Assembly (NCBI GenBank): GCA_050732935.1
Contig: JBOHRW010000150.1
Span: 12,862 to 76,861 of the forward strand
From: Gemmatimonadota bacterium
GTDB lineage: Bacteria > Gemmatimonadota > Gemmatimonadetes > JACCXV01 > JAHWKZ01
Direction of reading: 5' to 3'
Length of the DNA stretch: 64,000 nucleotides
Each line of letters opens with the position of its first letter. The first letter of the stretch is position 1. The translations under genes were made by a program, and so were the position numbers. Below, piece by piece: positions 29,865-50,063 of this stretch. The notes beneath the pieces are model-generated. The model made no database searches. It saw only the letters and a program-made list of their open reading frames with translations, and had not been told where the DNA came from.

Positions 29865-29961
29865 CGTGGCGCGGACGGACGCCCTGGCGCCGAGCGACCC
29901 GGCTCCACACCTGCCGGACGGGACGAGCGACCTGGAGATGGATGCCCAGGATAGCTGTTCC

Positions 29962-34657: not shown

Positions 34658-36361
34658 ATGGCACGTCCGTTCCGGCCCGTGCACCACGCTCTCGACGAGC
34701 GCAGGATCCTGGCGGGGGTCTATGCCGCCCGGCTCGCCATCGCCAACGCGCTGGCGGTGGCGGCGACGGTCGTGCGGACCCAGGCCGAGGGGCTCACCTG
34801 GCTTCCGCTGGCGGTGCTGGTCGTCGGGATTCCGACGGCCTGGACGATCGTCTCCGTCCTCTACAGCCGTCATCGCCCCATCGGGTGGCGCTTCCTCGCC
34901 GTCCAGGTCCTGCACGATCTCGTCCTGGCGACGGTGGCGGTCCTCCTGACCGGCGGGCTGGGCAGCGAGTTTGTCCTGATTTACATCCTGCTGATCGCGG
35001 TCTCGGGGCTGCTGCTCGGCTTGCGGGGGGCGATCGTGACCGCGTTGGCCTGCGTGGCCGTCTATCTGGGGATCGCCTACCTGCAGATCGCCCCCGCCCT
35101 GGCGCGATCCCCGGGTCTGATCGAGCTCCCCAATCTTTCCGGCCGTCCCACGACGATCCTCTGGAGCCTTTCCCTCACCTCGCTGGTCTTTGTCCTGGTC
35201 GGGGTCGTGGCCGGTATCGTCGGGCGCCGTCTGCGCCTCCAGCGGGAACGGCTCACCGAGCTCGAGCAGGAGCTGGCGGCCTCCCGGATCGACGCCCAGG
35301 ACATCCTGGACACGATCGAGAGCGGGATCCTCTCGATCGACGCCGACGAGAACATCGACTTCGTGAACGTCACGGCGCGCTCCCAGCTCGGCATTACCGG
35401 CTTGCCCGAGGGGGAGGACCCGAGAGGCGACCACCGCGCCCTCGGCATTCTCTACAACCTCCTTCTCCAAACCCTGCGCCGTGAGGAGGAGGTCGAGTAC
35501 TCGGAGCTGGCGCTCACCGACGTCGACGGACACGCGCGCACCTACAGCGTTACTACCACCGTCCTGTACGATCCGCGGGGAAGGAAGCGCGGGGCGGCGG
35601 CCATCATGAGCGACCTCGATCAGCGGCAACGCTTCGAGGACCTGGCTCGCCAGACGGACCGGCTCCAGGCCATGCACGAGCTGGCCGCGGGGCTCGCCCA
35701 CGAGATTCAGAATCCCCTCGCCGCGATCCGCTCGGCGGTGGAGCTGATGGAAGGCGACGACCCGGCGGAACCCCAGGCCCGCCGCCTGATGGATCTGGTC
35801 GTCCGCGAGGCCGACCGGTTGGCGGCGCTGGTCGAGGATTTCAAGGCTTTCTCGGCGATGCGCATCCGGGACCGCAAGCGGCTGGATCTCAGGGAGGTGC
35901 TGGAGGACGCGATCGAGATCGAACGGATGGTCGCCAGGGCCGACCACGTCCGGGTCACGTTCGTACGCCACCGGGCCCCGATCGTGGTCGAGGGGGACCA
36001 CAATCTGCTCAAGCAGGTCTGTGTCAATCTGCTGTCCAACGCGCGCCACGCCGTGGAGGGGTCGCGAGATCCCCAGATCGAGATCCACGTCGGGCTGGAA
36101 GGCTTGTTGCCGGAGCTGGAGCGGGCCGGCCCGTTTGCCGCCCTCGAGGTCCGCGACAACGGTGTCGGGATCGGCGAGGAAGCGAAGAAGCGCATCTTCG
36201 ACCCGTTCTTCACCACGCGGACGGGCGGTTTCGGGATGGGGCTGGCCATCGTCCACCGGATCGTGGAGCTCCATGGCGGGATGGTCTGGGTCGACAGCGA
36301 GCCGGGACGGGGATCGAACTTCCGGATCGCGCTACCCCGTCTTGGCGCCCCCGCCGAATAG
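34658..36361 (+). CDS. pilS: PilS-like sensor histidine kinase (six TM helices + PAS + HisKA + HATPase)
   Basis: Six N-terminal hydrophobic helices and a PAS-like segment. H-box LAAGLAHEIQNPLAAI, N/G boxes. Located immediately upstream of pilR and pilA. Confidence 0.75.
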   Translation: MARPFRPVHHALDERRILAGVYAARLAIANALAVAATVVRTQAEGLTWLPLAVLVVGIPTAWTIVSVLYSRHRPIGWRFLAVQVLHDLVLATVAVLLTGGLGSEFVLIYILLIAVSGLLLGLRGAIVTALACVAVYLGIAYLQIAPALARSPGLIELPNLSGRPTTILWSLSLTSLVFVLVGVVAGIVGRRLRLQRERLTELEQELAASRIDAQDILDTIESGILSIDADENIDFVNVTARSQLGITGLPEGEDPRGDHRALGILYNLLLQTLRREEEVEYSELALTDVDGHARTYSVTTTVLYDPRGRKRGAAAIMSDLDQRQRFEDLARQTDRLQAMHELAAGLAHEIQNPLAAIRSAVELMEGDDPAEPQARRLMDLVVREADRLAALVEDFKAFSAMRIRDRKRLDLREVLEDAIEIERMVARADHVRVTFVRHRAPIVVEGDHNLLKQVCVNLLSNARHAVEGSRDPQIEIHVGLEGLLPELERAGPFAALEVRDNGVGIGEEAKKRIFDPFFTTRTGGFGMGLAIVHRIVELHGGMVWVDSEPGRGSNFRIALPRLGAPAE

Positions 36362-36432
36362 CGCCGCCGCGATGAAGGACGCTATACTCTAACGCTCTCC
36401 CGTTGCCACCGACGATCCCTGGAGTCGTAGCC

Positions 36433-37863
<1,431 letters not shown>

Positions 37864-38006: not shown

Positions 38007-38022
38007 TGGCACCCCTCTTGCT
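38007..38022 (+). promoter_or_regulatory. Sigma-54 (-24/-12) promoter of pilA
   Basis: TGGCACccctcTTGCT is an exact GG-N10-GC match with TGGCAC and TTGC. It lies about 85 nt upstream of the pilA ATG and directly downstream of pilSR. Confidence 0.75.
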
Positions 38023-38106: not shown

Positions 38107-38487
38107 ATGAGAATCCGACGGAACCAAGGTTTTACCCTCATCGAGCTGCTGATCGTCGTCGTGATCATCGGCATCCTGGCGGCGATCGCCATCCCGCGCT
38201 TCGCGGGGACGAAGGAGAAGGCGTTCGACGCGGCCGCCAAGAGCGACCTGCGCAACGCCATGACCGCCCAGGAGGCGTACTTCGCCGACAACCAGACGTA
38301 CTCCTCCGACGAAACCCTGCTCGAGTGGCAGGCTTCCCAGGGCGTCACGCTCACGGTCAATGCGGCGGATGCCACGGGATACGACATGACGGCCGCCCAC
38401 TCCTCGAGCGGCAATTCGTTCTGCGTGGAAACCGACGTGGGCCAGATCTGCAAGGTCGGGGACGCGGCCTGCACCTGCGGCTCGTAG
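38107..38487 (+). CDS. pilA: Major type IV pilin PilA (type IVa)
   Basis: MRIRRNQGFTLIELLIVVVIIGILAAIAIP is the prepilin leader with the G|FTLIE processing site. A C-terminal disulfide pair (CVETDVGQICKVGDAACTC) is present. A double aaggag RBS precedes the start. Confidence 0.9.
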   Translation: MRIRRNQGFTLIELLIVVVIIGILAAIAIPRFAGTKEKAFDAAAKSDLRNAMTAQEAYFADNQTYSSDETLLEWQASQGVTLTVNAADATGYDMTAAHSSSGNSFCVETDVGQICKVGDAACTCGS

Positions 38488-38540: not shown

Positions 38541-38737
38541 TCAGGGTCGTCTGCCCTGCGTCTTTGGGGCGGGCCAGGCTCTCGGCAGGTGTCGATTTCT
38601 CGACACGATCGACCGCCGGAGCCGGCCGGGACGCGGCGGCTCTCGCGCGTGGATTCGCCGGCCCCCTCCTTGCTGAGGCGAGCGTCGACACGCGAGCCTC
38701 CCCGCCAGCCCCGTCTCCCTCGTACGAGAATTCCGAC

Positions 38738-39187
38738 ATGTCCCACCCACCCCGCCGGTCCCGCGGGTTCACGCTGCTGGAGTTGCTTCTCGCGCTGATC
38801 GTCTTCGGAATCCTGGTGGCCCTGGTCGCCCCTTCCCTGGTCAGTGGCGAGCGCCGTTGGGCCGCCTACGTCGCGGTCCGGACTCTCGCTTCGGACGTGG
38901 CCCGAGCCCGACAGAGAGCGATCCAGGACCGCGCCACCGTCCGGGTCGTTCTCGACACGCTGGCGGGTGCCTGGCACGTACGCCTCGCCAGCGGCGAGAC
39001 GGTCTCCAGGCGGAAGCTGCGGTCCGGCCTGGCTCTCGGGACCAGCGCCCATCTCCAAGAGATCCTCTTCAGCGCGCGAGGGACCAGCAACCTCTACTCG
39101 GCGGCCTGGGTCGTCGTCCGCGACGATCCACTCGCACGCGAGCATCGGATCCGGGTGCTGCCGACGGGCGCCATCGAGCTCCAGTGA
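38738..39187 (+). CDS. Minor pilin, FimT/GspH-like (set 1)
   Basis: Prepilin N-terminus RGFTLLELLLALIVFGILVALVAP. The size and the position as first gene of a minor-pilin operon fit FimT/FimU. Confidence 0.7.
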   Translation: MSHPPRRSRGFTLLELLLALIVFGILVALVAPSLVSGERRWAAYVAVRTLASDVARARQRAIQDRATVRVVLDTLAGAWHVRLASGETVSRRKLRSGLALGTSAHLQEILFSARGTSNLYSAAWVVVRDDPLAREHRIRVLPTGAIELQ

Positions 39188-39198
39188 CCGGGCCTTCC

Positions 39199-39567
39199 AT
39201 GACCAGAAGCGGCGCGTCCCTGCTGGAGGTGGTGGTGGCCGTCCTCCTCCTCGGGGTCGGTGCGCTGGCGCTCGTCGGGTCGATCGCGTACGCCCTCCGC
39301 GCCCGGGAGCTGTCGGTCTCCACGGCCCTCGCCGCGGTCGCGGCAGAAGCCTGGATCGAGCGCTGGCGCGGCCAGACCTGGCAAGGCGAAGGAGGGGGAT
39401 CGACCGCGGTCGCGTGGGGCGCGCGCCGGGGAAGTCTGGAGTGGGCGCTCGAGGACGTGGGTGCGTGCCTGCAGGAGGCGCGCGTGACGGCCGTGGCCGG
39501 TCGCGGCGAGGGTGTCAGGGTCGTGGTGGCCACGCGGCGCTTCCGGGAAGGCGCGGTCGGGTGCTGA
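39199..39567 (+). CDS. Minor pilin, PilV-like (set 1)
   Basis: N-terminus ASLLEVVVAVLLLGVGALALVGS matches the PilV motif (G-F-S/T-L-I/L-E-V-L-V-A). Confidence 0.6.
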   Translation: MTRSGASLLEVVVAVLLLGVGALALVGSIAYALRARELSVSTALAAVAAEAWIERWRGQTWQGEGGGSTAVAWGARRGSLEWALEDVGACLQEARVTAVAGRGEGVRVVVATRRFREGAVGC

Positions 39568-40142
39568 AGGCGTCCGATGCCCGGGGGTTCACGACGATCG
39601 AGGTCCTGGTGGCCCTGACCCTGGGTCTGGTCGTGGCGCTGGCCGCCCTCGTCCTCTGCTCCTCCGGAAACCGGGTCGTGGCCGACTTGATCCGCTCGCA
39701 GGCGTCGCTCCAGGAGCTTCTTGCCGCGGCGGAGCTGTGGCGCGCCGAGTGGCGGGGGGTCGGCCACGATCCCGCGGGCACCGCCGGCGCGGGAATCTCA
39801 CGGGCCACCGCCGAGACGCTCGAGTTCAGCGCCGACTGGAACGGAGACGGCGGTCTCCTGCCCACCGCGTCGAACCCCAACGAGCGGCTGGCGCACGCCC
39901 TTTCCCCGGGCGTGTGGAGGAGGGGAGTCAACGCGGGTCCGCGGTTGCCGCTGGCCTGGCCGGATTCGGCGCGCTTCGTGTACCGCGACACGAGCGGTGC
40001 GGATCTGGGGCCGCGCCCGGAGAAGGGGCGCATCGCGAGCGTCGAGGTGCGGGCGTTCCTCCGCTCGGGGGGTCCCGGGTTCGCCGTCTCCTGGGTCGCG
40101 GCGCGACGAGTCCGGTCCGAAGACGAGGGCCCCGGACCGTGA
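39564..40142 (+). CDS. Minor pilin, PilW-like (set 1)
   Basis: GTG start overlaps the upstream stop. RGFTTIEVLVALTLGLVVALAAL is a prepilin N-terminus. Confidence 0.6.
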   Translation: MKASDARGFTTIEVLVALTLGLVVALAALVLCSSGNRVVADLIRSQASLQELLAAAELWRAEWRGVGHDPAGTAGAGISRATAETLEFSADWNGDGGLLPTASNPNERLAHALSPGVWRRGVNAGPRLPLAWPDSARFVYRDTSGADLGPRPEKGRIASVEVRAFLRSGGPGFAVSWVAARRVRSEDEGPGP

Positions 40143-40546
40143 GCTCGACGGGACGCCCGGCGAGAGAGCGCGGGACCGCGCTCGCCATCGTATTGTGGGC
40201 GCTCGTCGCGCTGGCCGCGCTGTCGACCGCCGCCGTCGTGACCTCGATCACCGACCTGGCCCTGGCCCGCGCCCACCGCGACCATGCGGCGGCCCTGGGG
40301 CTGGCCGAGGCGGGGCTGGCGGAGGCGCTGGCGGTCCTGGCCGCAGATCCTCTTGCCGCGGGGCGGTCCGACAGCCTGTCGGGAGCCCTTTCGAGCGGTT
40401 CCTATCAGACGTCCTGGGCACCGGTCGGGGGTCGCGCGCGGATTGTCTCGACGGGCGAGAGCCGCGGCCTCCGCCGCCAGGTCGAAGCGTGGGTGGTGAC
40501 GGGAGAGAGAGTGCGCGTCGTGGCCTGGCGGGAGGCCTGGCGTTGA
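40139..40546 (+). CDS. PilX-like minor pilin (set 1)
   Basis: The N-terminus RGTALAIVLWALVALAALSTAAVVTS resembles the PilX N-domain (RGxALxVxLxxLxxLxxLG). GTG start overlapping the upstream stop. Confidence 0.5.
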   Translation: MSSTGRPARERGTALAIVLWALVALAALSTAAVVTSITDLALARAHRDHAAALGLAEAGLAEALAVLAADPLAAGRSDSLSGALSSGSYQTSWAPVGGRARIVSTGESRGLRRQVEAWVVTGERVRVVAWREAWR

Positions 40547-40743
40547 AAAGTGGCCGCGACCCGCTTCGCGGGTGCCCCGGGCCCCCCGGGCGTTTCGCTC
40601 GCGCCTTGATCCTGGCCGCTTTGGAACGCCAGGCCACCGATCGATAATAGTCGAAGCTACCTACTTGTTCCAAACTGCGGAATGAAGCTTGCACTCCGGA
40701 GAGTGGTACCCGGTCACCACCGGCCCTTCGACTCCGGAGCTTC

Positions 40744-41238
40744 ATGGAATCACGACCCACGTGGCCCTCCCCGATCCCGACCCGCGGGCCGTACGCCGCG
40801 AACGGGCTGACCTTCCTCGAGCTGCTGCTCGTCCTGACCCTTCTGGGGGTGTTCGTCACCATCGCCCTCCCGAGCCTCAGCGGGGGTACGAGATCCCACC
40901 GTGTAGTGCGGCAGGCTCGCGAAGTCCACGCCGCGCTGGCCCAGATCCGGGCGCGCGCTGTCGCCGAGCAGCGGCCGCATCGGTTCCTGGTGCTGGCCGA
41001 CGGGCGCTATCGACTCCAGTTCCAGAACGACGCCGCGGGCTGGACCGCCTACCGCACCTCGCTCGCCGCCGACGACCCGATCCAAGTGGTCGGCGGGAGC
41101 GGCGGAAACACGGTGGTGTTCGAGCCCGATGGGCGGGTGGAAGCGCCGGCCACCGTCCGGGTCGGCGTGCCACCCCGTCGCCACGAGATCCACATCCTCG
41201 CCGGCGGGCTGCTCCGGTGGAGCGGCCCTTCATCGTGA
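40744..41238 (+). CDS. Minor pilin, FimT/GspH-like (set 2)
   Basis: NGLTFLELLLVLTLLGVFVTIALP is a prepilin N-terminus with a GspH-like body. Confidence 0.65.
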   Translation: MESRPTWPSPIPTRGPYAANGLTFLELLLVLTLLGVFVTIALPSLSGGTRSHRVVRQAREVHAALAQIRARAVAEQRPHRFLVLADGRYRLQFQNDAAGWTAYRTSLAADDPIQVVGGSGGNTVVFEPDGRVEAPATVRVGVPPRRHEIHILAGGLLRWSGPSS

Positions 41239-41630
41239 TCGAGGACCGTCCGGCGCGCCCGCTCCCGGTTGGAGAGAGGGGATCCACCCTCATCGAGGTG
41301 ATGGTGGCGCTCGTCATCTTCCTGATCGGCGCCCTCGCGGTGGCGGCCTTTCTCCTCCTGTCGACGCAGGCCCAGGGAGGAGCGAACCGCCGCGGCCAGG
41401 CGGACCAGCTCCTCCAGGCCAAGGTCGAGGAGCTGTTGACCCTGCCGTACGAGGAGATCGTGGACGGCTCCGACCAGCGAACTGTCGGAGGATTGACCTT
41501 CGAGCGCAGCTGGTCGGTGATCGAGGACGAGCCTATCTCCCGCGTGAAGACCATCGAGCTGGAGGCTTCCTGGCGCGAGCGCGAGCGCGACTTCGTGGCT
41601 CACGCCGCAACCCTGAGGAGCGCCGAGTGA
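41235..41630 (+). CDS. Minor pilin, PilV-like (set 2)
   Basis: RGSTLIEVMVALVIFLIGALAVAAF. GTG start overlapping the upstream stop. Confidence 0.6.
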   Translation: MIEDRPARPLPVGERGSTLIEVMVALVIFLIGALAVAAFLLLSTQAQGGANRRGQADQLLQAKVEELLTLPYEEIVDGSDQRTVGGLTFERSWSVIEDEPISRVKTIELEASWRERERDFVAHAATLRSAE

Positions 41631-42211
41631 GCGCGCCGAGCGTGTCCCAGGGTGCTCGAGCGACCGGCCGGGGTCAGGGTTTCACTCTGGTCGAGCTACT
41701 CCTGGCGATGGTGCTCACCGGCTTCCTGGGGATGGCCGCGGTCCGGCTCTTCGTGGTTCAGCACCAGGCCTTCGTGCGACAGGGCGAGGGAATCCGGCGC
41801 ACGCAGAACGCTCGTGCCGGCTTCGACCTCATGACGCGGGAGATGCGCAACGCCGGCTACGACCCGCGCGGAACGGCGGAGGCGGCGGTGACTATCTGGA
41901 CCGCGGAGGCGTTCGCGTGGACCGCGGATCTGGACGCGGATGGCGACACGAACGACGCGGGCGAGAGCCTGGGCTACCGCCTGGGGGAGGACGGAACGCT
42001 CGTTCGCCGGGAAGGGCTGGTCGAGGTGATGGTCGCCGAGCACGTGATCGAGCTGGCCTTCACCTACTTCTCCGACGGGGGGAAGTCACCGGCCGGCTCG
42101 GCGGACGACATCGAACAGATCGGCGTCCGACTCGACTACGACACCCCAGGCGGGGCCGCCGCGGCGGTCCTGGAGACGCGCGTGGCGCTCCGCAACCAGG
42201 TCTGGCGATGA
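41627..42211 (+). CDS. Minor pilin, PilW-like (set 2)
   Basis: QGFTLVELLLAMVLTGFLGMAAV. GTG start overlapping the upstream stop. Confidence 0.6.
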   Translation: MSAPSVSQGARATGRGQGFTLVELLLAMVLTGFLGMAAVRLFVVQHQAFVRQGEGIRRTQNARAGFDLMTREMRNAGYDPRGTAEAAVTIWTAEAFAWTADLDADGDTNDAGESLGYRLGEDGTLVRREGLVEVMVAEHVIELAFTYFSDGGKSPAGSADDIEQIGVRLDYDTPGGAAAAVLETRVALRNQVWR

Positions 42212-43428
42212 AGGGCCAGGGGTCGCTTCGGAGCCGATCGGGCTTTGTCCTTCCCGCGGTCCTCGTGATCCTGATCGCCCTGGGCCTGATCGGGGGGGCC
42301 TCGGCGCTCCTCACCTCGACCGAGGTCCGGGTCGCCGGGCTGACCGGTCTGGGGCATCGCGCGTCCGCCGCGGCGGCGGCGGGGATCGAGCACGCCGTGG
42401 CCCACTTCGGCGCCGAGGGCGACGCCGCCGGCTGGCCGGTGCAGGGCGAGATCGACGGCTTCGACTACAGCGTGACGATCGGGCCCGACAGCTTCGACTT
42501 CGGGGACGGTCGGGTCCCGGTGTCGTGGAGCGCCGATGCGGGGACCAACGGGAATGGCGAGGGGCAGCCCGTCTGGGTACTGGTATCGCGGGCCGAGAGA
42601 GGGGCCTACCGGGCGTCCCAGACGCTCCGGCTGACGGCCGGAGGTCTCGAGATCCGAACGGACGCGGCGATCACCGCCAGCGGCTCGTTCAGGCTCCGGG
42701 GCAACGTGACGGTCTCGGGCGTGAACGTGGACGAGGACGGTCAGCCGGTCGATCCTGACGACGACGCCACCAGCGGCGCCTGTCAGGAGAACAAGGCCGC
42801 CTTCGTGGCCGAGGACGGGGATTCCGTCGACCCCCAGGGGTCGGTCGACCTCGATGGCAATCCCGCGTACGCCGGCAATGACCCGCCCTACGTCGTCGGC
42901 GACCTGGAGGCCGGACCGGTGACGCCGGAGGAGGTCCTCGGTCTCCCCGACGGGTGGCTCGATCCCTACCAGACCACGCCCGCGGAGTTCGCGGCCGATC
43001 CGATCGTGCCGCTGGCCGACATCGTGTACGTGACCGGCGACTTCGGGACCGGGGGGGGATCGGGTCCCAAGCTCAACGGCTCGGGAATTCTGATCGTCCA
43101 CAACCCGCTCTTCGATCCCCGTGAGCACGACCCCCAGCATCCCCTGTACGACCCGGCGAAGGTCGCCGATCCGTCCTACCGGCCAGCCACTCTCGGCAAC
43201 GTCACCGGCGGCACGTTCCACGGCCTCATCATCGCCGACCGGATGGACAAGCTCACCGGCCAGGCGGAGGTTTACGGGTCGGTCGTCACGCTCAGCCGGA
43301 CCCACGAGAGCTCGATGGCGGGGAAGGCTTTGATCCAGTACTCCTGCGCCGCCGTGCAGACCGCTTCCCGGACCGTCCTGCTTCCCAGACGCCTTGCCTG
43401 GGTCTCTGGCCTCGAATTTGCACCGTAA
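42208..43428 (+). CDS. PilX-N-domain protein, 406 aa (set 2; possible tip/adhesin-associated component)
   Basis: N-terminus SGFVLPAVLVILIALGLIGGASALLTSTEVRVAG (PilX N-terminal domain) followed by a 370-aa Gly/Asp-rich body. ATG overlaps the upstream stop. Confidence 0.5.
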   Translation: MKGQGSLRSRSGFVLPAVLVILIALGLIGGASALLTSTEVRVAGLTGLGHRASAAAAAGIEHAVAHFGAEGDAAGWPVQGEIDGFDYSVTIGPDSFDFGDGRVPVSWSADAGTNGNGEGQPVWVLVSRAERGAYRASQTLRLTAGGLEIRTDAAITASGSFRLRGNVTVSGVNVDEDGQPVDPDDDATSGACQENKAAFVAEDGDSVDPQGSVDLDGNPAYAGNDPPYVVGDLEAGPVTPEEVLGLPDGWLDPYQTTPAEFAADPIVPLADIVYVTGDFGTGGGSGPKLNGSGILIVHNPLFDPREHDPQHPLYDPAKVADPSYRPATLGNVTGGTFHGLIIADRMDKLTGQAEVYGSVVTLSRTHESSMAGKALIQYSCAAVQTASRTVLLPRRLAWVSGLEFAP

Positions 43429-43543: not shown

Positions 43544-44587
43544 ATGATTCTTCGACGATCCAGCACCTCGATTGCCGTCGACCTGGGGTCGCGGCACATC
43601 CGTCTCGTGGCCATCGAGAGGAAAAGCTCGAGGCCGCGTCTCGTGGCTTACGAGCGCGAGCCCATCGAGCCCGAGACCGTCGTGGCCGGGGAGATCATGG
43701 ACTTCCACGGATTGGCCGAGGCGCTGCGGCGGGTCCGCGAGCGTTCCGGGATCCGCCGACGGCCGGCCGCCACCTCGGTATCCGGTCGGGATGTCATCGT
43801 CAAGCGCGTTCGGATGGACCGCATGCGGGAAGCCGAGGCGCGGCAGATCATGCGCTGGGAGGCGGAGCAGCACGTTCCCTTCGACATCGACAGCGTGAGC
43901 ATCGATTTCGAGATCCTCGATCCCGAGGCCGACGGTCGGCAGATGGAGGTCGTCATCGTCGCCGCCAAGAAGGACCTCGTGGAGAGCCGCATGCGGCTGC
44001 TCGACGAGGGCGGCTTCGAGCCCGCGATCATCGACATCGACGCCTTCGCCGTTCAGACCACATTCGAGCACGGCCACGAACGCGCGCGCTATGGCACCTT
44101 CTGTCTCGTCAACGTCGGCTACGAGATCACCAGCGTGAGCCTGGTCCGTGACGGGCGTCCGCTGTTGACTCGCGACATCGCGACGGGGGAGCGTCGGTTC
44201 GAGGAGGCCCTGGTCGAGACGTTGGGCGTGACGATGGAGGAGGCCCGCCAGCGGCTCCGCGACCCGGACGGCCCGGACCCGCTGGCCCGGCACACGCTGG
44301 CATCGGTCGTCGACGGGTTCGTGACCCCGATCGAACGTGCCCGCGGGTATCTCTCCACGAGCGAGGGCGAAGCCCGGGAGCTGGACGAGGTCGTGCTCTC
44401 CGGAAGCGGGGCCGGACTTCCGGGTCTCCGGAACGCCTTGGCGGACCGGCTCGGGGTGCCGGTCACGATCCTCGATCCACTGACCCAGCTGGAAGTCGAC
44501 CCGGCGATCCGGGCGAGCCTGCTCGACGTGGGGGCCCGGGCCTCGCTGGCCATCCCGGTCGGCCTGGGACTGCGAGAGGGAGGATGA
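43544..44587 (+). CDS. pilM: Type IV pilus assembly protein PilM (actin-like ATPase fold)
   Basis: IAVDLGSRHIRLVAIE...IIDIDAFAV...VLSGSGAGLPGL are FtsA/actin-like motifs. A gagaggag RBS precedes the start. Confidence 0.85.
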   Translation: MILRRSSTSIAVDLGSRHIRLVAIERKSSRPRLVAYEREPIEPETVVAGEIMDFHGLAEALRRVRERSGIRRRPAATSVSGRDVIVKRVRMDRMREAEARQIMRWEAEQHVPFDIDSVSIDFEILDPEADGRQMEVVIVAAKKDLVESRMRLLDEGGFEPAIIDIDAFAVQTTFEHGHERARYGTFCLVNVGYEITSVSLVRDGRPLLTRDIATGERRFEEALVETLGVTMEEARQRLRDPDGPDPLARHTLASVVDGFVTPIERARGYLSTSEGEARELDEVVLSGSGAGLPGLRNALADRLGVPVTILDPLTQLEVDPAIRASLLDVGARASLAIPVGLGLREGG

Positions 44588-44591
44588 AGCC

Positions 44592-45257
44592 GTGGCGCGC
44601 GTGAACCTGATCCCGCAGGCTCGGCGACGGGATATGCGGAGGCGGCGCGTCGCCCTGCCCCAGGGGCGCCCCGGCGCCGAGCTGATCCTGGGCGCTTTCG
44701 TTCTGATCCTCCTGATCGGTTCGGTGGCTGCCTTCGCGGTCGAGCGCCGGAGCCTGTCCGAGGCGCGGGCCGCGGTCGTCGTGGCCCAGGCCGACAGCGC
44801 GCGGCTGCACGGGGTGGTGGAGCAGGTCGAGCGCATCCAGCGCGCTCAGACCCGCATGGCGGAGCGAATCGAGCTCCTGGAGAGCGTGATCGACGGCAGG
44901 CTCTACTGGCCGCGCCTCATGGAGACCCTGTCGCGGACGCTGCCTGCCTACGTGTGGCTGGAGCGGGTCGATCGGCAGGAGCCGGGGGCCGGGCGGATCC
45001 AGATCGCGGGCGCGTCGTTCGCGAACGCCGCCATCACCGACTTCATGCATGGCCTGGAGGCTTCGCCGGAGCTGCGGGACGTTGCCCTGGTCGAGGTCAG
45101 TCGGAGCCTGCGGGACTCCCTGGATGTCCAGCAGTTCACGGTCGTGGCGACGGAGGAAGATCGGCGGATCCCGGACGTGGCGCCGGACTCGACGACCGTA
45201 GACGGCCGCCCCGAGATCGATCCGGTGGAGAGACCTTCAAATGGAGGGGAGAGATGA
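44592..45257 (+). CDS. pilN: Type IV pilus assembly protein PilN
   Basis: VNLIPQARRR followed by a single TM and coiled coil. Sits between pilM and the pilO-pilQ genes. Confidence 0.75.
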   Translation: MARVNLIPQARRRDMRRRRVALPQGRPGAELILGAFVLILLIGSVAAFAVERRSLSEARAAVVVAQADSARLHGVVEQVERIQRAQTRMAERIELLESVIDGRLYWPRLMETLSRTLPAYVWLERVDRQEPGAGRIQIAGASFANAAITDFMHGLEASPELRDVALVEVSRSLRDSLDVQQFTVVATEEDRRIPDVAPDSTTVDGRPEIDPVERPSNGGER

Positions 45258-45775
45258 GGCGCCCGAACGCTCGCCTGCACTGGCTGGGGCTGGTTCTCGC
45301 GGTCACTCTCGCGACGACGTGCGAGCCCGACGAGGTGCAGAACTCCGCCAACGAGGCGGTGATCATGGTGCAGTTCTTCGCCTCGCGGACGAACCGCGTG
45401 CCGGTGGCGGGCGTGCGCATGATCGTGGAGTCGCCGGGCGACCAGCAGGACCAGACGCAGGGCCGGCCCTACAACGGACCCGACATCCTGGCCATCTCCG
45501 GCGACGACGGCATCGCGATCGCGCGTGTCTTTCCAGGGTTCGACGATTCCGGTCAGAACGGTGAAGGCGGAGGCGACGAGGAGGGCTCGCAGGGCCAGGG
45601 GCCGGAGAACCCGCTCGACCTGCCCCCACCGCTCATCTTCGCGGACGTGGCGATCACGTTCATCCATCAGGGGGAGATCGTCCCGTTCATCGCGAGCGGC
45701 TTCACGATCGGCTCCGGACTGCTCTACGACCTGGGCCCCATCTTTCTCGACGAGCTCGGGCTGACCGTGGAGTGA
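45254..45775 (+). CDS. Hypothetical lipoprotein inserted between pilN and pilO
   Basis: Lipobox LAVTLATTC. A low-complexity acidic/Gly segment DDSGQNGEGGGDEEGSQGQG. ATGA overlap with pilN and GTGA overlap with pilO. Confidence 0.5.
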   Translation: MRRPNARLHWLGLVLAVTLATTCEPDEVQNSANEAVIMVQFFASRTNRVPVAGVRMIVESPGDQQDQTQGRPYNGPDILAISGDDGIAIARVFPGFDDSGQNGEGGGDEEGSQGQGPENPLDLPPPLIFADVAITFIHQGEIVPFIASGFTIGSGLLYDLGPIFLDELGLTVE

Positions 45776-46443
45776 TGCTCGGTCTCGATTCCCCCGACCG
45801 TCAGCGGATGGCGCTGTTCGGCCTGTTGCTCGTGGGCGGCGCGGTGCTGTTCCACCGCTACGTGTGGTCGCCCCTCCACGACGACCGGATCGCGACGGAG
45901 ACGCATCTCGCGCGCCTCGATCGGACCAACCGTCAGGCGCGGGCGCTGACCCAGCCCACTCGCATCTCCGAGCTCGAGCGGCTCGAGAGTGAGTACGAGG
46001 TGGCGCTGGCGGCATACGAGCCTCTGTTCCCTCACCGCTCCGAGGCCATGGGACTGCTCGCCGGTGTCTCCAGCGCGGCTCTGTCCGCCGACGTCGAGAT
46101 CGTGAGCTTCGCCCCGCGGGAGAAGATCGAGGGGAAGGTGCTCGTGGAGATTCCCTACGAAGTGGAGGTCCAGGGCTCGTATCACGACATCGGTCGGTTC
46201 CTGGCCGGCGTGATCAACCTGCCGCAGATCGTTCGACCGGAGGTCATCAACCTGGCGGGCGTCTTCGACGACGACCCCGATCGCGGGGAGCTCGAGCATC
46301 AGGTCCTGGGGACGCTGGTGCTCTCGGCGTACGTGCGCGCGTCGCAGGAGATCCGCATCGAGCCGGCTCGCAACGCGGCGCTCCCGGAGTCGTCCGGCGG
46401 AGTCCACGCGGTCCGTAGCGCGGGAGGGCCCGATGAAGGCTAG
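45772..46443 (+). CDS. pilO: Type IV pilus assembly protein PilO
   Basis: N-terminal TM (LFGLLLVGGAVLF), a coiled coil, and a C-terminal ferredoxin-like region (YEVEVQGSYHDIGRFLAGVINLPQIV). Confidence 0.7.
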   Translation: MMLGLDSPDRQRMALFGLLLVGGAVLFHRYVWSPLHDDRIATETHLARLDRTNRQARALTQPTRISELERLESEYEVALAAYEPLFPHRSEAMGLLAGVSSAALSADVEIVSFAPREKIEGKVLVEIPYEVEVQGSYHDIGRFLAGVINLPQIVRPEVINLAGVFDDDPDRGELEHQVLGTLVLSAYVRASQEIRIEPARNAALPESSGGVHAVRSAGGPDEG

Positions 46444-46951
46444 CGCTGTCCTGCTCTTCCTCGTGGTCCTCTCGGTCCCGGCGCATGCCTTGGCCCAGCA
46501 GGAGATCGAGCCGGTGGAGGTGAAGGCCCTGGCCTCCCCCGTCACCCCGGCGGCCTACGTCTCGGACGGTCGGCGGGATCCGTTCCTGCCGCTCACCGGG
46601 ATCTACGCCTCGCAGGAGGACGGCGCACCGCGCCTCGAGCAGCTCGAGCTGACCGGGATCTTCATGGGCGCGCCCGGCAACAGCCTGGTCGTGCTCGAGG
46701 ATCACACCCGCCGCGGACACTTCGTGCGGGTCGGGGAGTCGCTGGGTAACGCGCGGCTGCTCGAGATCCTGCCCGACGCGGCCGTCTTCGAGGTCGATGG
46801 CTACGGGATCCTCCGTCGCGACACCCTGCGCCTGGTGCCGGATCGGCGGACCGCCGACGAACCGCCGGAGTCGTCCCCGGACCCGCCACCCGCAGGATCC
46901 CCGCCGGCGCGGCCTGAGCCGCCCCAGCCGCAAGCCGGGGAGGGCCCGTGA
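46433..46951 (+). CDS. pilP: Type IV pilus assembly protein PilP (secretin-binding)
   Basis: Signal peptide ...AHALA|QQE. RRDPFLP (the PilP DPF motif). A Pro-rich C-terminal tail. Confidence 0.65.
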   Translation: MKASAVLLFLVVLSVPAHALAQQEIEPVEVKALASPVTPAAYVSDGRRDPFLPLTGIYASQEDGAPRLEQLELTGIFMGAPGNSLVVLEDHTRRGHFVRVGESLGNARLLEILPDAAVFEVDGYGILRRDTLRLVPDRRTADEPPESSPDPPPAGSPPARPEPPQPQAGEGP

Positions 46952-48915
46952 TCGGCCGGCTCGGCCTTCCGCTGATCGTGGCGGCGCTCCTGGGCGCCGA
47001 GGCGAAGCCGCTCGGGGGCACCCCGTCCCCGCAGACCGGCCGCGCGACCGAGGTGGTGCGCGGTTTCCGCGTGGTCAGCGACGGAGACGTCACCCGTATC
47101 GTCATCGAGACCACGGGCGCCGTCGCCTATCGCGACGACTTCCAGCCGCTGCCGCCCCGGCTCACGATCGAGCTTCTGGGCGTCCGCCCCGGGCTGCCGC
47201 TCCAGGAGTACGACGGGATCCGGCGCGGAGGCGTGCGCTACGTAGTCGCCAGCGCGCCGTCGCCGGACCGCGTCAGGCTCGACATCGCGCTGACGGGAGT
47301 CACCGCCTACGCGGTCTATCAGCAGGGATCGCAGGTCCATGTCACCTTCGACAACCCCGGCGCGGCATTCAGCGCCTTCGTCGCGGATGGCGACGCGCGG
47401 GAGGCGCCCGGTGGCAGCGTGACGAGGGTCTCCTCGTCTCCGTCCTCCTACGGGACGGCGCTCCAGGGGTCGGACCCCGGTCTGGACGGCGTCGACGGCG
47501 AGCCGATCTCGCTCTCCTTCCAGGGCGCCGACATCGAGACCGTGATCCGCGCCTTCGGCGAGATCAGCGGTCGTTCGATCGTCGCCGGGACGGGAGCGCG
47601 CGGCATCCGCATCACCGCCGACATCCGCGACCGCCCCTGGGACGAGGCGCTGGTGGCCGTCATGCACGCCAACGGCCTCGAGGTGCGCCATCAGAACGGC
47701 ATCATCCGCGTCGACACCGTCCAGAACCTGCGCGAGACCGAGCAGCTCGTGGATCTCGGCACGATCGTGCTCCAGCTCAACTACATCGCGGCCGCGGACG
47801 TGGTCCCGGTCCTGGCGCCGCTCAAGTCCGAGCGCGGCAGCGTCACCGCCGACGCCAAGACGAACTCGCTGGTCATCACCGACATCCCCACCCGCGTGCG
47901 GCGGATCACCGACATCGTGCGCGAGCTCGACGTCCAGACCCCGCAGGTCACGATCAAGGCCAAGATCGTATTCGTGAACAAGGTCGACCTGCGGGATCTG
48001 GGGGTGAAGTGGCGGATGGAGAACCTGCGCGACCCGACGGTGGACACCCACGTGCTCGCCAACACCGAGGGCACGCTGGCGGATCCGTTCCTCGACCTGT
48101 CACTCGGAACGCTGGCCTCGGGCCTCAACATCGGCGGTCTCCTGCAGGCGCTCGAGCAGCGCGAGCTGGCGGACATCCAGGCCGAGCCCCAGACGACGGT
48201 GCTCAACAACCTGCCGGCCGAGGTATTCGTGGGGGAGCGAACGCCCATCCGCGTCCTCGACGTGGGCGCCGACACGCCCGAGGCCCGGGCCAGCGTGGAG
48301 CTGATCGAGACCGGCATCATCCTCAGGGTCACCCCGCACATCACCGCCAACGGCAAGGTGCTCATGGAGCTCCACGCCGAGCGCTCGGGCGTGGCGATCT
48401 CCGACCCGGCTATCGGCGTGACGTTCAACACGCAACGCGCGACCTCGCAGATCCTGGTGGACGACGGCGAGACCGCGGTCATCGGCGGGCTCACCGTGGA
48501 GGATGTGTCGACCGTTCGGCGTGGCATCCCCATCCTCAAGGACATCCCGATTCTGGGCGCGCTGTTTCGGAGCGAGCGGAAACGCGAGGAGAAGCGCGAC
48601 CTGCTGATCTTCGTGACGCCCTACGTCATGCCGGTGGACGATCCCGAGCCGGAGACCGTCTCGGCGGTCTGCCTCGAGGACCAGCCCTGGTACCGGAGCG
48701 ACCAGGCGATCGTCCACAACGGGGAGCGGTGGCTCCGCTACGGATCGCCGCGGCGGATGAATCCGCGCGGCCTGGTGGCGGTCGGCAATTTCCGCGGCGT
48801 GCCGATCTACACGGCGGTGGAGACGGCGGCCCTCGAGATCTACCTGCCGCTCTGCTCGGAGGGCTTGTTCCAGGCCTATCGGATGGTCCCCGAGCTGCGG
48901 GGGACGAACGGATGA
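46948..48915 (+). CDS. pilQ: Type IV pilus secretin PilQ with AMIN and N-domains
   Basis: N-domains SFQGADIETVIRAFGEISGRSIVAG. Secretin core VTPHITANGKVLMEL...AVIGGL...GIPILKDIPILGALFRSERKREEKRDLLIFVTPYVM. An extra 90 aa with two Cys follows the secretin domain. Confidence 0.85.
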   Translation: MIGRLGLPLIVAALLGAEAKPLGGTPSPQTGRATEVVRGFRVVSDGDVTRIVIETTGAVAYRDDFQPLPPRLTIELLGVRPGLPLQEYDGIRRGGVRYVVASAPSPDRVRLDIALTGVTAYAVYQQGSQVHVTFDNPGAAFSAFVADGDAREAPGGSVTRVSSSPSSYGTALQGSDPGLDGVDGEPISLSFQGADIETVIRAFGEISGRSIVAGTGARGIRITADIRDRPWDEALVAVMHANGLEVRHQNGIIRVDTVQNLRETEQLVDLGTIVLQLNYIAAADVVPVLAPLKSERGSVTADAKTNSLVITDIPTRVRRITDIVRELDVQTPQVTIKAKIVFVNKVDLRDLGVKWRMENLRDPTVDTHVLANTEGTLADPFLDLSLGTLASGLNIGGLLQALEQRELADIQAEPQTTVLNNLPAEVFVGERTPIRVLDVGADTPEARASVELIETGIILRVTPHITANGKVLMELHAERSGVAISDPAIGVTFNTQRATSQILVDDGETAVIGGLTVEDVSTVRRGIPILKDIPILGALFRSERKREEKRDLLIFVTPYVMPVDDPEPETVSAVCLEDQPWYRSDQAIVHNGERWLRYGSPRRMNPRGLVAVGNFRGVPIYTAVETAALEIYLPLCSEGLFQAYRMVPELRGTNG

Positions 48916-50063
48916 GTGGGTTGGCGATCCGCTGCGCCCGCGGGCCGGCCCCGCCGGCCGCCCGGCTCGTCGCCGTCGGTCTCGTCGCCTGGCTCGCGGT
49001 GTCGGGTTGCGACGACGCGCTCGTCGACGACGCACCCGGGGGCGGACATCCGGACCGTCTGGTGGCGATCTCGGGTCAGACCCTGGTCGCCCAGCTCGGC
49101 GCCTCGACGGGCGCCTTCCTGCGGCTCAAGGTGGTGGACCGCCGGGCGCGCCCGGTCAGGGCCGCCGTCGTGCGATACGTGGTTCTCTCCGGCGCCGGCG
49201 TCTTCTCGTCGGACAGCACGCTCACCGACGACCAGGGGTTCACGCAGGTCGAGTTCCGGCCGTTCACGGCCGGGACCGCGATCGTCGAGGCGCGGACCGA
49301 GACCGCCGACGGGGTCCTGGGCCTCCAGTTCCAGATCCAGGTGCTCAGCGACCCGCGCGAGGCCGCTGTCCTGGAAAAGACCGGGGGCGACGGCCAGAGC
49401 GGACCGGCTGGCTCCTTCCTGGCCGATCCGCTCGAGGTGCGGGTGCTGAACCCGGACGGACTGCCGGTGGTCGAGCATCCCGTCACGTTCACGCTCGAGC
49501 AGGCGCCGGGGCCGTCGGCGGGCGTAGCTTCAGCGCGCGAAGGCACGACCGCGGGCCAGATCCAGGTCGTGACCGACGCCGCCGGGCTCGCCCGCGCCTT
49601 CCTGCGGCTCGGGACCCGGGTCGGGGCCTATTCGGTCGCCGCCCGCGCGCTGTCAGGCACGGGAGCGGATCCGACCGCCTTCGAGGTGACGTTCACCGCC
49701 ACCGCCACCGCCGCCCCCGCGGCCCGGCTCGTGGTGATCGCGGGCGGCGACCAGACGGCCGTGATCGACACCCTGAACGCCCCCGACAGCCCCGACTTCC
49801 GGGGCCGCGACGCCAACCCGTTCGTGGCCCAGGCGCTGGACGCCTTCGACCAGCCGGCGGCCGGCGTGGCGGTCCAGTGGGTGGTCTCGGACGGCGGAGG
49901 AACGCTGCTCGCCACGATCACAGTGACCGACGCGTTCGGGCTAGCCCAGAACCAGCTCTTCGAGGCGACCGAGGGCCGGAACGCGGTCGTGGCGATCGCG
50001 GCCGGCACGAACGCGGTCGAGTTCGTGGTGACGGGGGTAGTGCACCAGCCGGAAGGGGAGTAA
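48912..50063 (+). CDS. Lipoprotein with tandem bacterial Ig-like (Big-1-type) repeats, coupled to pilQ
   Basis: Lipobox LAVSGC. Repeated beta-rich modules (AQLGASTGAFLRLKVVDRRARPVRAAVVRYVVLSGAGVF... and VEHPVTFTLEQAPGPSAGVASAR...). ATGA overlap with the pilQ stop. Confidence 0.55.
   Translation: MSGLAIRCARGPAPPAARLVAVGLVAWLAVSGCDDALVDDAPGGGHPDRLVAISGQTLVAQLGASTGAFLRLKVVDRRARPVRAAVVRYVVLSGAGVFSSDSTLTDDQGFTQVEFRPFTAGTAIVEARTETADGVLGLQFQIQVLSDPREAAVLEKTGGDGQSGPAGSFLADPLEVRVLNPDGLPVVEHPVTFTLEQAPGPSAGVASAREGTTAGQIQVVTDAAGLARAFLRLGTRVGAYSVAARALSGTGADPTAFEVTFTATATAAPAARLVVIAGGDQTAVIDTLNAPDSPDFRGRDANPFVAQALDAFDQPAAGVAVQWVVSDGGGTLLATITVTDAFGLAQNQLFEATEGRNAVVAIAAGTNAVEFVVTGVVHQPEGE

What the first reader, a model, noticed from the sequence alone, without database searches (positions are those of the whole stretch)
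38738..43428. Two consecutive fimT-pilV-pilW-pilX minor-pilin sets and no PilY1
Eight prepilin-type genes follow pilA. They form two ordered sets, 38738-40546 and 40744-43428. Each set is GspH/FimT-like, then PilV-like, then PilW-like, then PilX-like, with overlapping GTG/ATG starts inside each set.

No roughly 1,000-aa PilY1 adhesin and no terminal PilE-like pilin is present. The second set instead ends with a 406-aa protein that has a PilX N-domain and a Gly/Asp-rich body.

The sets may be a duplicated priming complex, for instance one for the pilus and one for a competence pseudopilus (a comEA-like gene opens the locus). The 406-aa protein may be a PilY1 substitute.
Basis: partly seen in the sequence, partly recalled or inferred. 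Interest (0 to 1): 0.5.

Follow-up and report, generated by a model that had tools for sequence, protein, structure and literature searches.

The report
Two alternative pilus-tip gene sets
A soil Gemmatimonadota bacterium carries two old, intact four-gene sets for the starter and tip complex of its type IV pilus, one ending in a small cap protein and one in a cap with a bulky beta-solenoid, an arrangement already known from Thermus, cyanobacteria and Myxococcus.

Summary
Between pilA (38107-38487) and pilM there are eight pilin-type genes in two translationally coupled quartets, 38738-40546 and 40744-43428. Each runs GspH/FimT-like, PilV/GspI-like, PilW/GspJ-like, then a Glu5-less PilX/GspK-like cap. 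No PilY1-type gene lies in the 64-kb window.

The sets are not a recent duplication. Only the third genes are detectably similar (32% over 90 aa). All eight genes are intact, with dN/dS of 0.14-0.51.

The A+B tandem is conserved in about a dozen related Gemmatimonadota loci. In three other MAGs, set A sits at the pil locus while B-type quartets lie elsewhere, sometimes doubled. Set B has its own conserved sigma-54-type promoter (26 of 30 loci).

A4 (135 aa) models as a bare GspK-like cap. The 406-aa B4 models as a GspK-like pilin domain plus an acidic, ice-binding-protein-type beta-solenoid. Its only significant PDB Foldseek hit is ComZ, the Thermus tip pilin. It has no beta-propeller and no vWA domain.

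Best reading: two alternative priming/tip modules for one type IVa pilus machine, with B4 as a solenoid tip plug or adhesin that does a PilY1-like job without being PilY1. This is a new member of a known kind. Which set serves which function is untested, and a PilY1 elsewhere in the genome is not excluded.

The parts
38007..38022 (+). sigma-54-type -24/-12 element TGGCACCCCTCTTGCT, 85 nt upstream of pilA
   Evidence: 11 of 12 consensus positions. The same element lies at the same distance in 12 of 13 related loci. pilS and pilR lie directly upstream.
38107..38487 (+). pilA, the only major-pilin candidate in the window (126 aa)
   Evidence: N_methyl E 2.3e-10; myxococcal PilA model E 5.9e-18 over the N-terminal 80 residues. 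Class-III signal G|FTLIE.
38659..38674 (+). weaker sigma-54-like element CGGCCCCCTCCTTGCT, 64 nt upstream of A1
   Evidence: 9 of 12 consensus positions. Conserved in the closest relatives only (8 of 14 loci at 9 or more). Function inferred.
38738..39187 (+). A1, GspH/FimT-type minor pilin (149 aa)
   Evidence: Pfam GspH 25.0 bits (cut-off 21) and N_methyl. dN/dS 0.14-0.28.
39184..39567 (+). A2, PilV/GspI-size minor pilin (127 aa; alternative start 39199)
   Evidence: G|ASLLE signal. TIGR02523 PilV 30.6 bits, below cut-off. Conserved Cys pair. dN/dS 0.22-0.42.
39561..40142 (+). A3, PilW/GspJ-class minor pilin (193 aa)
   Evidence: G|FTTIE signal. Aligns end to end with B3, with invariant R..G..P and AD.(N/D).(D/S)G motifs. 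dN/dS 0.16-0.30.
40139..40546 (+). A4, bare PilX/GspK-class cap pilin without Glu5 (135 aa)
40678..40693 (+). sigma-54-type element CGGAATGAAGCTTGCA, 50 nt upstream of B1, in the 197-bp gap between the sets
   Evidence: YGGAAY-N6-TTGCA is present 43-66 nt upstream of B1 in most loci: 26 of 30 score 9 or more. The four loci lacking it are all the second quartet of a tandem B-B pair. Controls upstream of internal genes: 0-2 hits. A sigma-70-like TTGGAA-16-GATAAT also lies at 40621-40648.
40744..41238 (+). B1, GspH/FimT-type minor pilin (164 aa)
   Evidence: Pfam GspH 30.7 bits (cut-off 21). XpsH and GspH models E about 1e-9.
41235..41630 (+). B2, PilV/GspI-size minor pilin (131 aa; alternative start 41217)
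   Evidence: G|STLIE signal. TIGR02523 PilV 31.2 bits, below cut-off. dN/dS 0.18-0.51.
41627..42211 (+). B3, PilW/GspJ-class minor pilin (194 aa), acidic
   Evidence: G|FTLVE signal. PpdC model E 4e-7 over residues 14-122; HpsC and GspJ hits in relatives. Net charge of the globular part has a median of -10 across 37 homologues.
42208..43428 (+). B4, modular cap pilin: PilX_N-type helix without Glu5, GspK-like sheet, acidic beta-solenoid (406 aa)

Best explanation
The region encodes two alternative 'core minor pilin' modules for a single type IVa pilus machine (pilB, pilT, pilC, pilS, pilR, pilA and pilMNOPQ in the same window). Each module is a four-gene operon in the order linker (GspH/FimT-like), GspI/PilV-like, GspJ/PilW-like, and a Glu5-less GspK/PilX-like cap.

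By analogy with the GspHIJK and FimU-PilVWX complexes, each quartet is expected to assemble in the inner membrane. It would prime polymerisation of PilA and then ride at the pilus tip.

Set A ends in a minimal 135-aa cap. Set B ends in a 406-aa cap whose pilin domain carries a rigid, strongly acidic beta-solenoid. That solenoid would form the extreme tip and most likely acts as the bulky plug and adhesin or receptor, a role PilY1 plays in Proteobacteria.

Set B is a self-contained cassette with its own sigma-54 promoter, so the cell can decide which tip its pili carry.

Shown here: gene content and order, signal motifs, predicted folds, conservation, purifying selection, conserved promoter elements, and co-occurrence of A and B sets in the same genomes.

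Inferred: complex formation, tip location, alternative rather than joint use, and any specific function such as adhesion, motility or DNA uptake.
For: - Anatomy and family hits for all eight genes.
- A4 and B4 both model with confidence as GspK-class caps. A4 is bare. B4 adds an ice-binding-protein-type solenoid and resembles ComZ.
- The two cap families share the PilX_N-type N-terminus, and a distant B4 relative passes Pfam PilX_N.
- The sets are ancient paralogues, not copies.
- All genes have dN/dS of 0.14-0.51, like pilN, pilO and pilP.
- The A+B tandem between pilA and pilM is conserved in L001, L006, L007, L010, L016, L017, L019, L020 and L022.
- In MAGs DASSPT, DASRVB and DASSBK, set A is at the pil locus and one or two B quartets are on another contig (with 37, 38).
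- Stand-alone B quartets have no ATPase, platform, secretin or major pilin beside them, so they must use a machine encoded elsewhere.
- A conserved sigma-54 element lies upstream of B1 in 26 of 30 loci, against 0-2 for internal genes.
- B3 and B4 are strongly acidic in essentially all homologues, while A3 and A4 are near neutral.
- Precedents: three minor-pilin clusters serving one machine in M. xanthus (PMC7541494); ComZ as a solenoid tip pilin (PMC6561018); two core sets priming two pilus types, with solenoid PilX proposed as a PilY1 substitute, in cyanobacteria (10.64898/2026.02.12.705559).
Against: - Everything functional is inferred; there are no expression, localisation or interaction data.
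- The PilV and PilW assignments rest on position, size and sub-threshold hits.
- PDB profile searches found only the N-terminal helix.
- The link to ComZ and the ice-binding proteins is fold-level only. Foldseek TM-scores are low (0.16-0.19) because of the long helix and a different domain orientation.
- The sigma-54 element upstream of set A is weak and missing in part of the clade, so set A may be co-transcribed with pilA.
- No significant terminator hairpins lie between the units.
- PilY1 homologues exist in some Gemmatimonadota (PMC13190605), so set A could still work with a PilY1 encoded elsewhere.
Confidence: 0.6

Rival explanations
1. Set A is the true T4aP priming set and works with a PilY1-type adhesin encoded elsewhere in the genome. 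Set B is an accessory tip set. This is partly compatible with the best explanation.
For: A4 is a small PilX like those that partner PilY1 in Proteobacteria and Myxococcus (PMC7541494). PilY1.3-clade homologues are reported from Gemmatimonadota (PMC13190605). Set A sits at the pil locus in the MAGs where B is elsewhere.
Against: No PilY1, vWA or propeller gene lies in the 64-kb window or within 10 kb of the sets in any fetched relative. In characterised systems pilY1 lies next to its minor pilins. In L036 and L037 a solenoid-type set, not set A, sits directly upstream of pilM.
Confidence: 0.25
2. One of the two sets belongs to a different filament machine encoded elsewhere (a T2SS-like pseudopilus or a second type IV filament system), and merely sits beside the T4aP genes.
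For: The best family hits for A1 and B1 are GspH/XpsH, and the cap folds match GspK/XcpX. B quartets occur far from pil genes in many genomes.
Against: No T2SS genes (GspD, E, F, L, M) or a second major pilin lie next to any B or A quartet examined. Neither cap has the GspK alpha-domain or a Pfam T2SSK hit. Set B carries the same type of sigma-54 promoter as pilA. In L036 and L038 a B-type set directly precedes pilMNOQ.
Confidence: 0.12
3. The two sets are functionally redundant back-up copies left by a duplication, with no specialisation.
For: Same gene order and sizes for the first three genes. A3 and B3 are clearly homologous. In M. xanthus, cluster_1 or cluster_3 alone suffices for piliation (PMC7541494).
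Against: Pairs 1, 2 and 4 show no significant similarity beyond the N-terminal helix. The caps differ by a 250-residue solenoid, and charge differs consistently between sets. Both types co-occur across genomes that have diverged to about 50% protein identity and are under purifying selection. Set B has its own promoter.
Confidence: 0.1
4. All eight proteins form one enlarged tip or priming complex.
For: The sets are adjacent and on the same strand in this clade.
Against: There are two Glu5-less caps, and only one can be terminal. The sets are unlinked in other genomes, and up to three sets occur per genome. They are separate promoter units.
Confidence: 0.05

Closest known systems
Thermus thermophilus ComZ with PilA2 (competence pilus tip; PDB 6QVI; PMC6561018)
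   Different: No detectable sequence similarity. B4 is smaller (406 against about 550 aa) and strongly acidic. DNA binding is unknown. B4 is the last gene of an H-I-J-K quartet rather than sitting between pilA2 and pilA3.
Cyanobacterial dual core minor-pilin sets with beta-solenoid PilX (bioRxiv 10.64898/2026.02.12.705559)
   Same: Two conserved, deeply diverged core minor-pilin sets per genome that need not be colocalised. PilX carries an ice-binding-protein-like solenoid and is proposed to replace the PilY1 plug. There, one set serves competence pili and the other motility pili.
   Different: In cyanobacteria both PilX subfamilies carry solenoids. Here one cap is bare (A4) and one is solenoid-bearing (B4). 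The phylum differs, and the sigma-54 promoter upstream of set B has no reported counterpart. No functional data exist here.
Myxococcus xanthus minor pilin/PilY1 clusters 1-3 (PMC7541494; PMC8833165)
   Same: Several FimU-PilV-PilW-PilX sets serve one major pilin and one T4aP machine. PilX has PF14341 and lacks Glu5. The sets are differentially expressed.
   Different: Every M. xanthus cluster includes a PilY1 gene with a C-terminal propeller; none is present here. M. xanthus PilX proteins have no solenoid.
T2SS minor pseudopilins GspH-GspI-GspJ-GspK (PDB 3CI0, 5VTM)
   Same: Same gene order and a Glu5-less terminal subunit. GspK/XcpX are the top or near-top fold matches for A4 and for the B4 pilin domain. 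A1 and B1 pass Pfam GspH.
   Different: No T2SS machine genes nearby. The caps lack the GspK alpha-helical insertion and the Pfam T2SSK domain. The sets are embedded in a pilA-pilMNOPQ locus.
Modular tip pilins of Streptococcus sanguinis (PilA/PilB/PilC; PDB 7O5Y)
   Different: Monoderm system; the grafted modules there are vWA and lectin domains, not a solenoid.

Membership tests
Core minor-pilin (priming/tip) set of type IVa pili / GspHIJK-type quartet | Four co-oriented, translationally coupled genes in H-I-J-K order inside or serving a T4aP locus | tested here: met
   Both sets show 4- or 7-bp start/stop overlaps and lie between pilA and pilMNOPQ. The same structure is seen in relatives.
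Core minor-pilin (priming/tip) set of type IVa pili / GspHIJK-type quartet | Class-III signal peptide with Gly-1 and Glu+5 in the first three subunits; the terminal subunit lacks Glu5 | tested here: met
   A1-A3 and B1-B3 match the G|xxxxE motif. A4 (G|TALAI) and B4 (G|FVLPA) lack Glu5.
Core minor-pilin (priming/tip) set of type IVa pili / GspHIJK-type quartet | First subunit belongs to the GspH/FimT/FimU family | tested here: met
   Pfam PF12019: 25.0 bits (A1) and 30.7 bits (B1), gathering score 21.
Core minor-pilin (priming/tip) set of type IVa pili / GspHIJK-type quartet | Second and third subunits belong to the PilV/GspI and PilW/GspJ families | tested here: inconclusive
   Only sub-threshold hits: TIGR02523 about 31 bits against 52; PpdC 29.5 against 120; HpsC and GspJ in relatives. 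PDB profile search found only the N-terminal helix. The assignment rests on order, size and weak similarity.
Core minor-pilin (priming/tip) set of type IVa pili / GspHIJK-type quartet | Terminal subunit has the GspK/PilX cap fold | tested here: met
Core minor-pilin (priming/tip) set of type IVa pili / GspHIJK-type quartet | The proteins form a complex that primes pilus assembly and sits at the tip | not testable with these tools
   Needs genetics, pull-downs, cryo-ET or multimer modelling.
PilY1 / PilC tip adhesins | C-terminal PilY1-type beta-propeller (Pfam PF05567), usually about 1,000 aa, often with an N-terminal vWA domain | tested here: not met
ComZ-like / beta-solenoid PilX modular tip pilins | GspK-like pilin domain plus a triangular beta-solenoid related to DUF3494 ice-binding proteins | tested here: met
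ComZ-like / beta-solenoid PilX modular tip pilins | Solenoid inserted between the penultimate and last strands of the pilin sheet | tested here: inconclusive
   The order of secondary-structure elements fits: sheet 78-145, solenoid 153-377, helix 380-389, final strand 392-404. Model coordinates could not be inspected.
ComZ-like / beta-solenoid PilX modular tip pilins | Sequence homology to ComZ or to cyanobacterial PilX | tested here: not met
   A profile of 40 B4 homologues finds no ComZ or ice-binding protein in the PDB at E up to 10. Cyanobacterial PilX was not compared directly. The resemblance may be convergent or very remote.
ComZ-like / beta-solenoid PilX modular tip pilins | DNA binding, or an adhesin or plug function at the tip | not testable with these tools
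   Only the charge is known: the B4 body has pI 4.2, and net charge has a median of -25 across homologues.
T2SS pseudopilus operon | GspK with the alpha-domain insertion (Pfam T2SSK) and adjacency to gspD/E/F/L/M and gspG | tested here: not met
   No T2SSK hit in A4 or B4, and no alpha-domain in the models. Neighbours are pilA and pilMNOPQ, or unrelated metabolic genes.

The most novel reading that the evidence does not exclude
Gemmatimonadota may run one PilY1-less type IVa pilus machine with exchangeable tips. A bare-capped set (A) would make a basic, general-purpose or DNA-uptake pilus. One or more portable, sigma-54-switched cassettes (B) would add a strongly acidic beta-solenoid tip that binds cations, minerals or polysaccharides. 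The B cassette would be a mobile tip module that has moved, doubled and docked next to set A within the phylum. Its solenoid belongs to an unnamed family (about 2,200 clusters at 50% identity) that extends into Ignavibacteria, Bacteroidota and Chlorobi.
Probability: 0.25. Interest if true: 0.5.

Novelty: new member of a known kind. Interest (0 to 1): 0.3.

Why it matters
Type IV pili of Gemmatimonadota, an abundant but barely cultured soil phylum, have not been studied. A full-text search for the phylum name with 'type IV pil' and 'minor pilin' returned one paper, which mentions the phylum only in passing.

This locus shows that the 'several priming sets, one machine' design and the solenoid-bearing PilX/ComZ-type tip pilin extend to a further phylum beyond Deinococcota and Cyanobacteria. 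That supports the view that a solenoid cap is a common alternative to PilY1 outside Proteobacteria.

It also offers a clean natural contrast, bare cap against solenoid cap on the same machine, for testing what the bulky tip actually does. The conceptual advance is modest, because each element already has a published precedent.

Tried and rejected
- **Recent tandem duplication: rejected.** A1/B1, A2/B2 and A4/B4 show no significant similarity beyond the pilin helix. Only A3/B3 are alike (32% over 90 aa).
- **Pseudogenisation of one set: rejected.** All ORFs are intact, with dN/dS of 0.14-0.51 against three relatives.
- **Beta-propeller or vWA in the 406-aa protein: rejected**.
- **Sequence-level link of B4 or A3/B3 to solved structures: none found.** Only N-terminal helix hits appeared.
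- **Intrinsic terminators between pilA, set A, set B and pilM: not supported.** The scan found none. Predicted hairpins after pilA and after A4 are no more stable than shuffles (z -1.2 and -1.3). The one after B4 is marginal (z -2.3).
- **My first sigma-54 pattern had the wrong spacing** and gave a chance-level count. The corrected pattern gave 11 matches against 4.3 expected. The real support comes from conservation of position across loci.
- **The afdb50 fold library was unavailable**.
- **The simple rule 'set A is resident, set B is satellite' is not universal.** In L036 and L037 a solenoid-type set directly precedes pilM, with no set A or pilA within 6 kb.

Full report
**Source and context.** The window comes from a high-GC (about 69%) Gemmatimonadota metagenome-assembled genome. 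The 406-aa protein is 100% identical to NCBI entry ACREMD_09330 on an 84-kb contig.

The finding lies inside a complete type IVa pilus (T4aP) locus on the + strand:
- comEA-like gene 27340-28089 (HHH_3, E 1.7e-29)
- pilB 28101-29864, pilT 29845-31038, pilC 31041-32240
- a TPR protein and an M28 peptidase
- pilS 34658-36361 and pilR 36403-37863
- pilA 38107-38487
- the eight genes of the finding
- pilM 43544-44587 and pilN 44592-45257
- an unassigned 173-aa lipoprotein-like gene, 45254-45775
- pilO 45772-46443, pilP 46433-46951, pilQ 46948-48915
- a Big_1 lipoprotein, 48912-50063

Set A:
- A1 38738-39187 (149 aa)
- A2 39184-39567 (127 aa)
- A3 39561-40142 (193 aa)
- A4 40139-40546 (135 aa)

Set B:
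- B1 40744-41238 (164 aa)
- B2 41235-41630 (131 aa)
- B3 41627-42211 (194 aa)
- B4 42208-43428 (406 aa)

Within each set, each start overlaps the previous stop by 4 bp (7 bp for A2/A3). A 197-bp gap separates the sets. Independent gene calls in relatives give the same boundaries.

A motif scan of all six frames finds exactly seven class-III signal peptides in the 64 kb: pilA, A1-A3 and B1-B3. A4 and B4 have the same leader and hydrophobic helix but lack Glu5, the hallmark of PilX/GspK-type terminal subunits.

Family evidence for each position:
- A1 and B1 pass the Pfam GspH gathering score.
- A2 and B2 give sub-threshold PilV hits.
- A3 and B3 give sub-threshold PpdC, HpsC and GspJ hits. They align end to end with shared invariant motifs.
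- A4 is weakly PilX_N, and many of its orthologues carry PF14341.
- B4 has no family hit. It shares its N-terminal 70 residues with the A4 family at profile level (probability 91%). A 27%-identical homologue passes Pfam PilX_N.

No PilY1 is present. Every large ORF with coding-type third-position GC is accounted for by another function, and no PilY1, vWA or propeller domain was hit.

**Not a recent duplication, and not decaying.** Pairwise BLASTP between corresponding genes is significant only for A3/B3 (32% identity over 90 residues, E 1e-10). The other pairs share only the pilin helix.

Against orthologues in three relatives (B4 identity 81%, 70% and 56%), all eight genes have dN/dS between 0.14 and 0.51. 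That is the same range as pilN, pilO and pilP. Both sets are therefore old and maintained by selection.

**Comparative genomics.** The B4 family was found in 62 protein clusters at 90% identity and in 70 loci of GTDB representative genomes. Homemade HMMs for each gene were run over all fetched loci. The architectures were:
- **pilR-pilA-A1-A4-B1-B4-pilMNOPQ, as in the window:** L001, L006 (= L009), L007 (= L011), L010, L016, L017, L019, L020 and L022, with fragments in L012/13, L015 and L018.
- **A B quartet alone among unrelated genes:** L003, L014, L023, L025, L028 and L030-L033.
- **Two B quartets in tandem:** L008, L024, L027 and L029.
- **A divergent solenoid-type quartet directly upstream of pilM:** L036 and L038. 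In L036 and L037 there is no set A or pilA within 6 kb upstream.

Searching with A4 and looking up its relatives showed pilA-A1-A4-pilMNOPQ loci without set B (L079-L083). Three of these come from the same MAGs that hold B quartets on other contigs:
- DASSPT: L080 with L029
- DASRVB: L081 with L024
- DASSBK: L083 with L032

So possession of a bare-cap set plus one or more solenoid-cap sets is a recurrent genomic state in this phylum. The window's clade has simply brought them side by side. Stand-alone B quartets have no ATPase, platform protein, secretin or major pilin beside them, so they must use a machine encoded elsewhere, most simply the T4aP machine.

**Transcription units.** pilA has a near-perfect sigma-54 promoter, TGGCACCCCTCTTGCT, at 38007-38022. 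It lies 85 nt upstream and is conserved at the same distance in 12 of 13 loci, which fits the adjacent pilSR genes.

A related element, YGGAAY-N6-TTGCA, lies 43-66 nt upstream of B1 in most loci. In the window it is CGGAATGAAGCTTGCA at 40678-40693. Of 30 loci, 26 score at least 9 of 12 consensus positions, and stand-alone cassettes score 11 of 12. All four loci that lack it are the second quartet of a tandem B-B pair. The same scan upstream of internal genes (A2-A4, B2-B4) gives 0-2 hits at 9 or more and none at 10 or more.

Set A has a weaker element, CGGCCCCCTCCTTGCT at 38659-38674, conserved only in the closest relatives (8 of 14 loci). In the window as a whole the loose pattern occurs 11 times against 4.3 expected.

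No convincing terminators were found. Set B is thus very probably its own sigma-54-dependent operon. Set A may have its own promoter or may read through from pilA.

By Foldseek the only significant PDB hits are the three chains of ComZ from Thermus thermophilus (E 4e-5 to 7e-5). No propeller or vWA fold appears.

ComZ is described as a GspK-like pilin with an ice-binding-protein-like solenoid inserted before the last strand. It is too bulky to fit anywhere but the pilus tip (PMC6561018). A 2026 preprint reports the same architecture for all cyanobacterial PilX proteins and proposes that it replaces the PilY1 plug (10.64898/2026.02.12.705559).

The similarity of B4 to these proteins is structural only. 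A profile of the family finds nothing in the PDB by sequence.

Other features of the B4 family:
- Two invariant cysteines (192 and 380) and a conserved GILIVHNPLFDPREHDP motif.
- B3 and B4 are strongly acidic in essentially all homologues (median net charge -10 and -25). A3 and A4 are near neutral.
- The family is sizeable and unnamed: 2,229 clusters at 50% identity with E up to 1e-3 and 59 with E up to 1e-30. Weaker relatives of the solenoid body occur in Ignavibacteria, Bacteroidota and Chlorobi.

**Interpretation.** The best-supported reading is two alternative core minor-pilin modules for one T4aP machine. By analogy with GspHIJK and FimU-PilVWX, each quartet would prime PilA polymerisation and stay at the tip. 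Set A would give a bare-capped pilus. Set B would give a pilus tipped by an acidic solenoid that acts as plug and adhesin or receptor.

This mirrors M. xanthus, where three clusters serve one pilin and one machine and either of two clusters suffices (PMC7541494). It also mirrors cyanobacteria, where two sets prime competence and motility pili.

Gene content, predicted folds, conservation, promoter elements and co-occurrence are shown here. Complex formation, tip location, alternative use and the actual functions are inferred.

The charge data do not point to B4 as an obvious DNA binder, although ComZ also lacks a basic patch (PMC6561018).

**Limits.**
- PilY1.3-clade homologues are reported from Gemmatimonadota (PMC13190605), so a PilY1 elsewhere in this genome, possibly partnering the small PilX of set A, cannot be excluded.
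- The PilV and PilW assignments are positional and sub-threshold.
- All structural statements rest on predicted models.

**Verdict.** The system is a new member, in a new phylum, of known kinds: multiple minor-pilin sets, and ComZ-like or solenoid-PilX tip pilins. The mildly new feature is the pairing of a bare cap with a solenoid cap, with set B under its own conserved sigma-54 promoter. Interest is moderate to low.

Noticed in passing
window 45254-45775 (+): A 173-aa lipoprotein-like gene with no Pfam hit is wedged between pilN and pilO, with 4-bp overlaps on both sides. A 171-174-aa gene occupies the same slot in every related pilMNOPQ locus fetched. It may be an unrecognised alignment-subcomplex component.
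   Followed up: partly
window 48912-50063 (+): A 383-aa lipoprotein with Big_1 and MG4-like Ig domains directly follows pilQ, overlapping its stop. It is conserved in that position in all related loci (386-398 aa).
   Followed up: partly
window 43407-43422 (+): A sigma-54-like element, TGGCCTCGAATTTGCA, lies inside the last codons of B4, about 120 nt upstream of pilM. Eight of 17 loci have a match of 9 or more of 12 upstream of pilM (L001: TGGCACCGGAGTTGCA). pilMNOPQ may also be sigma-54 driven.
   Followed up: partly
L001 11215-11826 (-), also L015-L020 and L022: A sister clade carries an extra, reverse-oriented GspH-type pilin gene (203 aa; Pfam GspH 23.4 bits) between B4 and pilM. It is absent from the window.
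   Followed up: partly
L035 2917-9311 (Candidatus Zymogenaceae MAG): A related cassette follows a pilR-like gene. Its PilW-position gene encodes a 1,387-aa pilin with fn3 and Ig-like domains, followed by a 451-aa B4 homologue that passes Pfam PilX_N (44 bits). This is another way of building a bulky tip.
   Followed up: partly
L079, L080, L081 (upstream of set A): In genomes with set A alone at the pil locus, two pilin genes flank a block of PMT_2, YfhO, GT2 and methyltransferase genes. This suggests pilin glycosylation and a second major-pilin-like gene. Neither is present in the window.
   Followed up: no
L059, L057, L064-L066 (Bacteroidota / Ignavibacteria MAGs): Distant homologues of the B4 solenoid body (about 25% identity, 340-400 aa) are often tandemly repeated, with up to four copies in L059. 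The family has no Pfam model despite about 2,200 clusters at 50% identity.
   Followed up: no
window 39561-40142 and 41627-42211: Both PilW-class proteins keep an invariant AD-x-(N/D)-x-(D/S)-G motif (ADWNGDG and ADLDADG) and an R-x-x-G-x-x-P motif. The first resembles a calcium-binding loop. Its function is unknown.
   Followed up: no
window 20587-26250 (+): A 1,887-aa SprA-family protein (type IX secretion translocon; SprA_N, E 1e-20) lies 1 kb upstream of the comEA-pilB block. The genome therefore has both T9SS and T4aP surface machinery.
   Followed up: no
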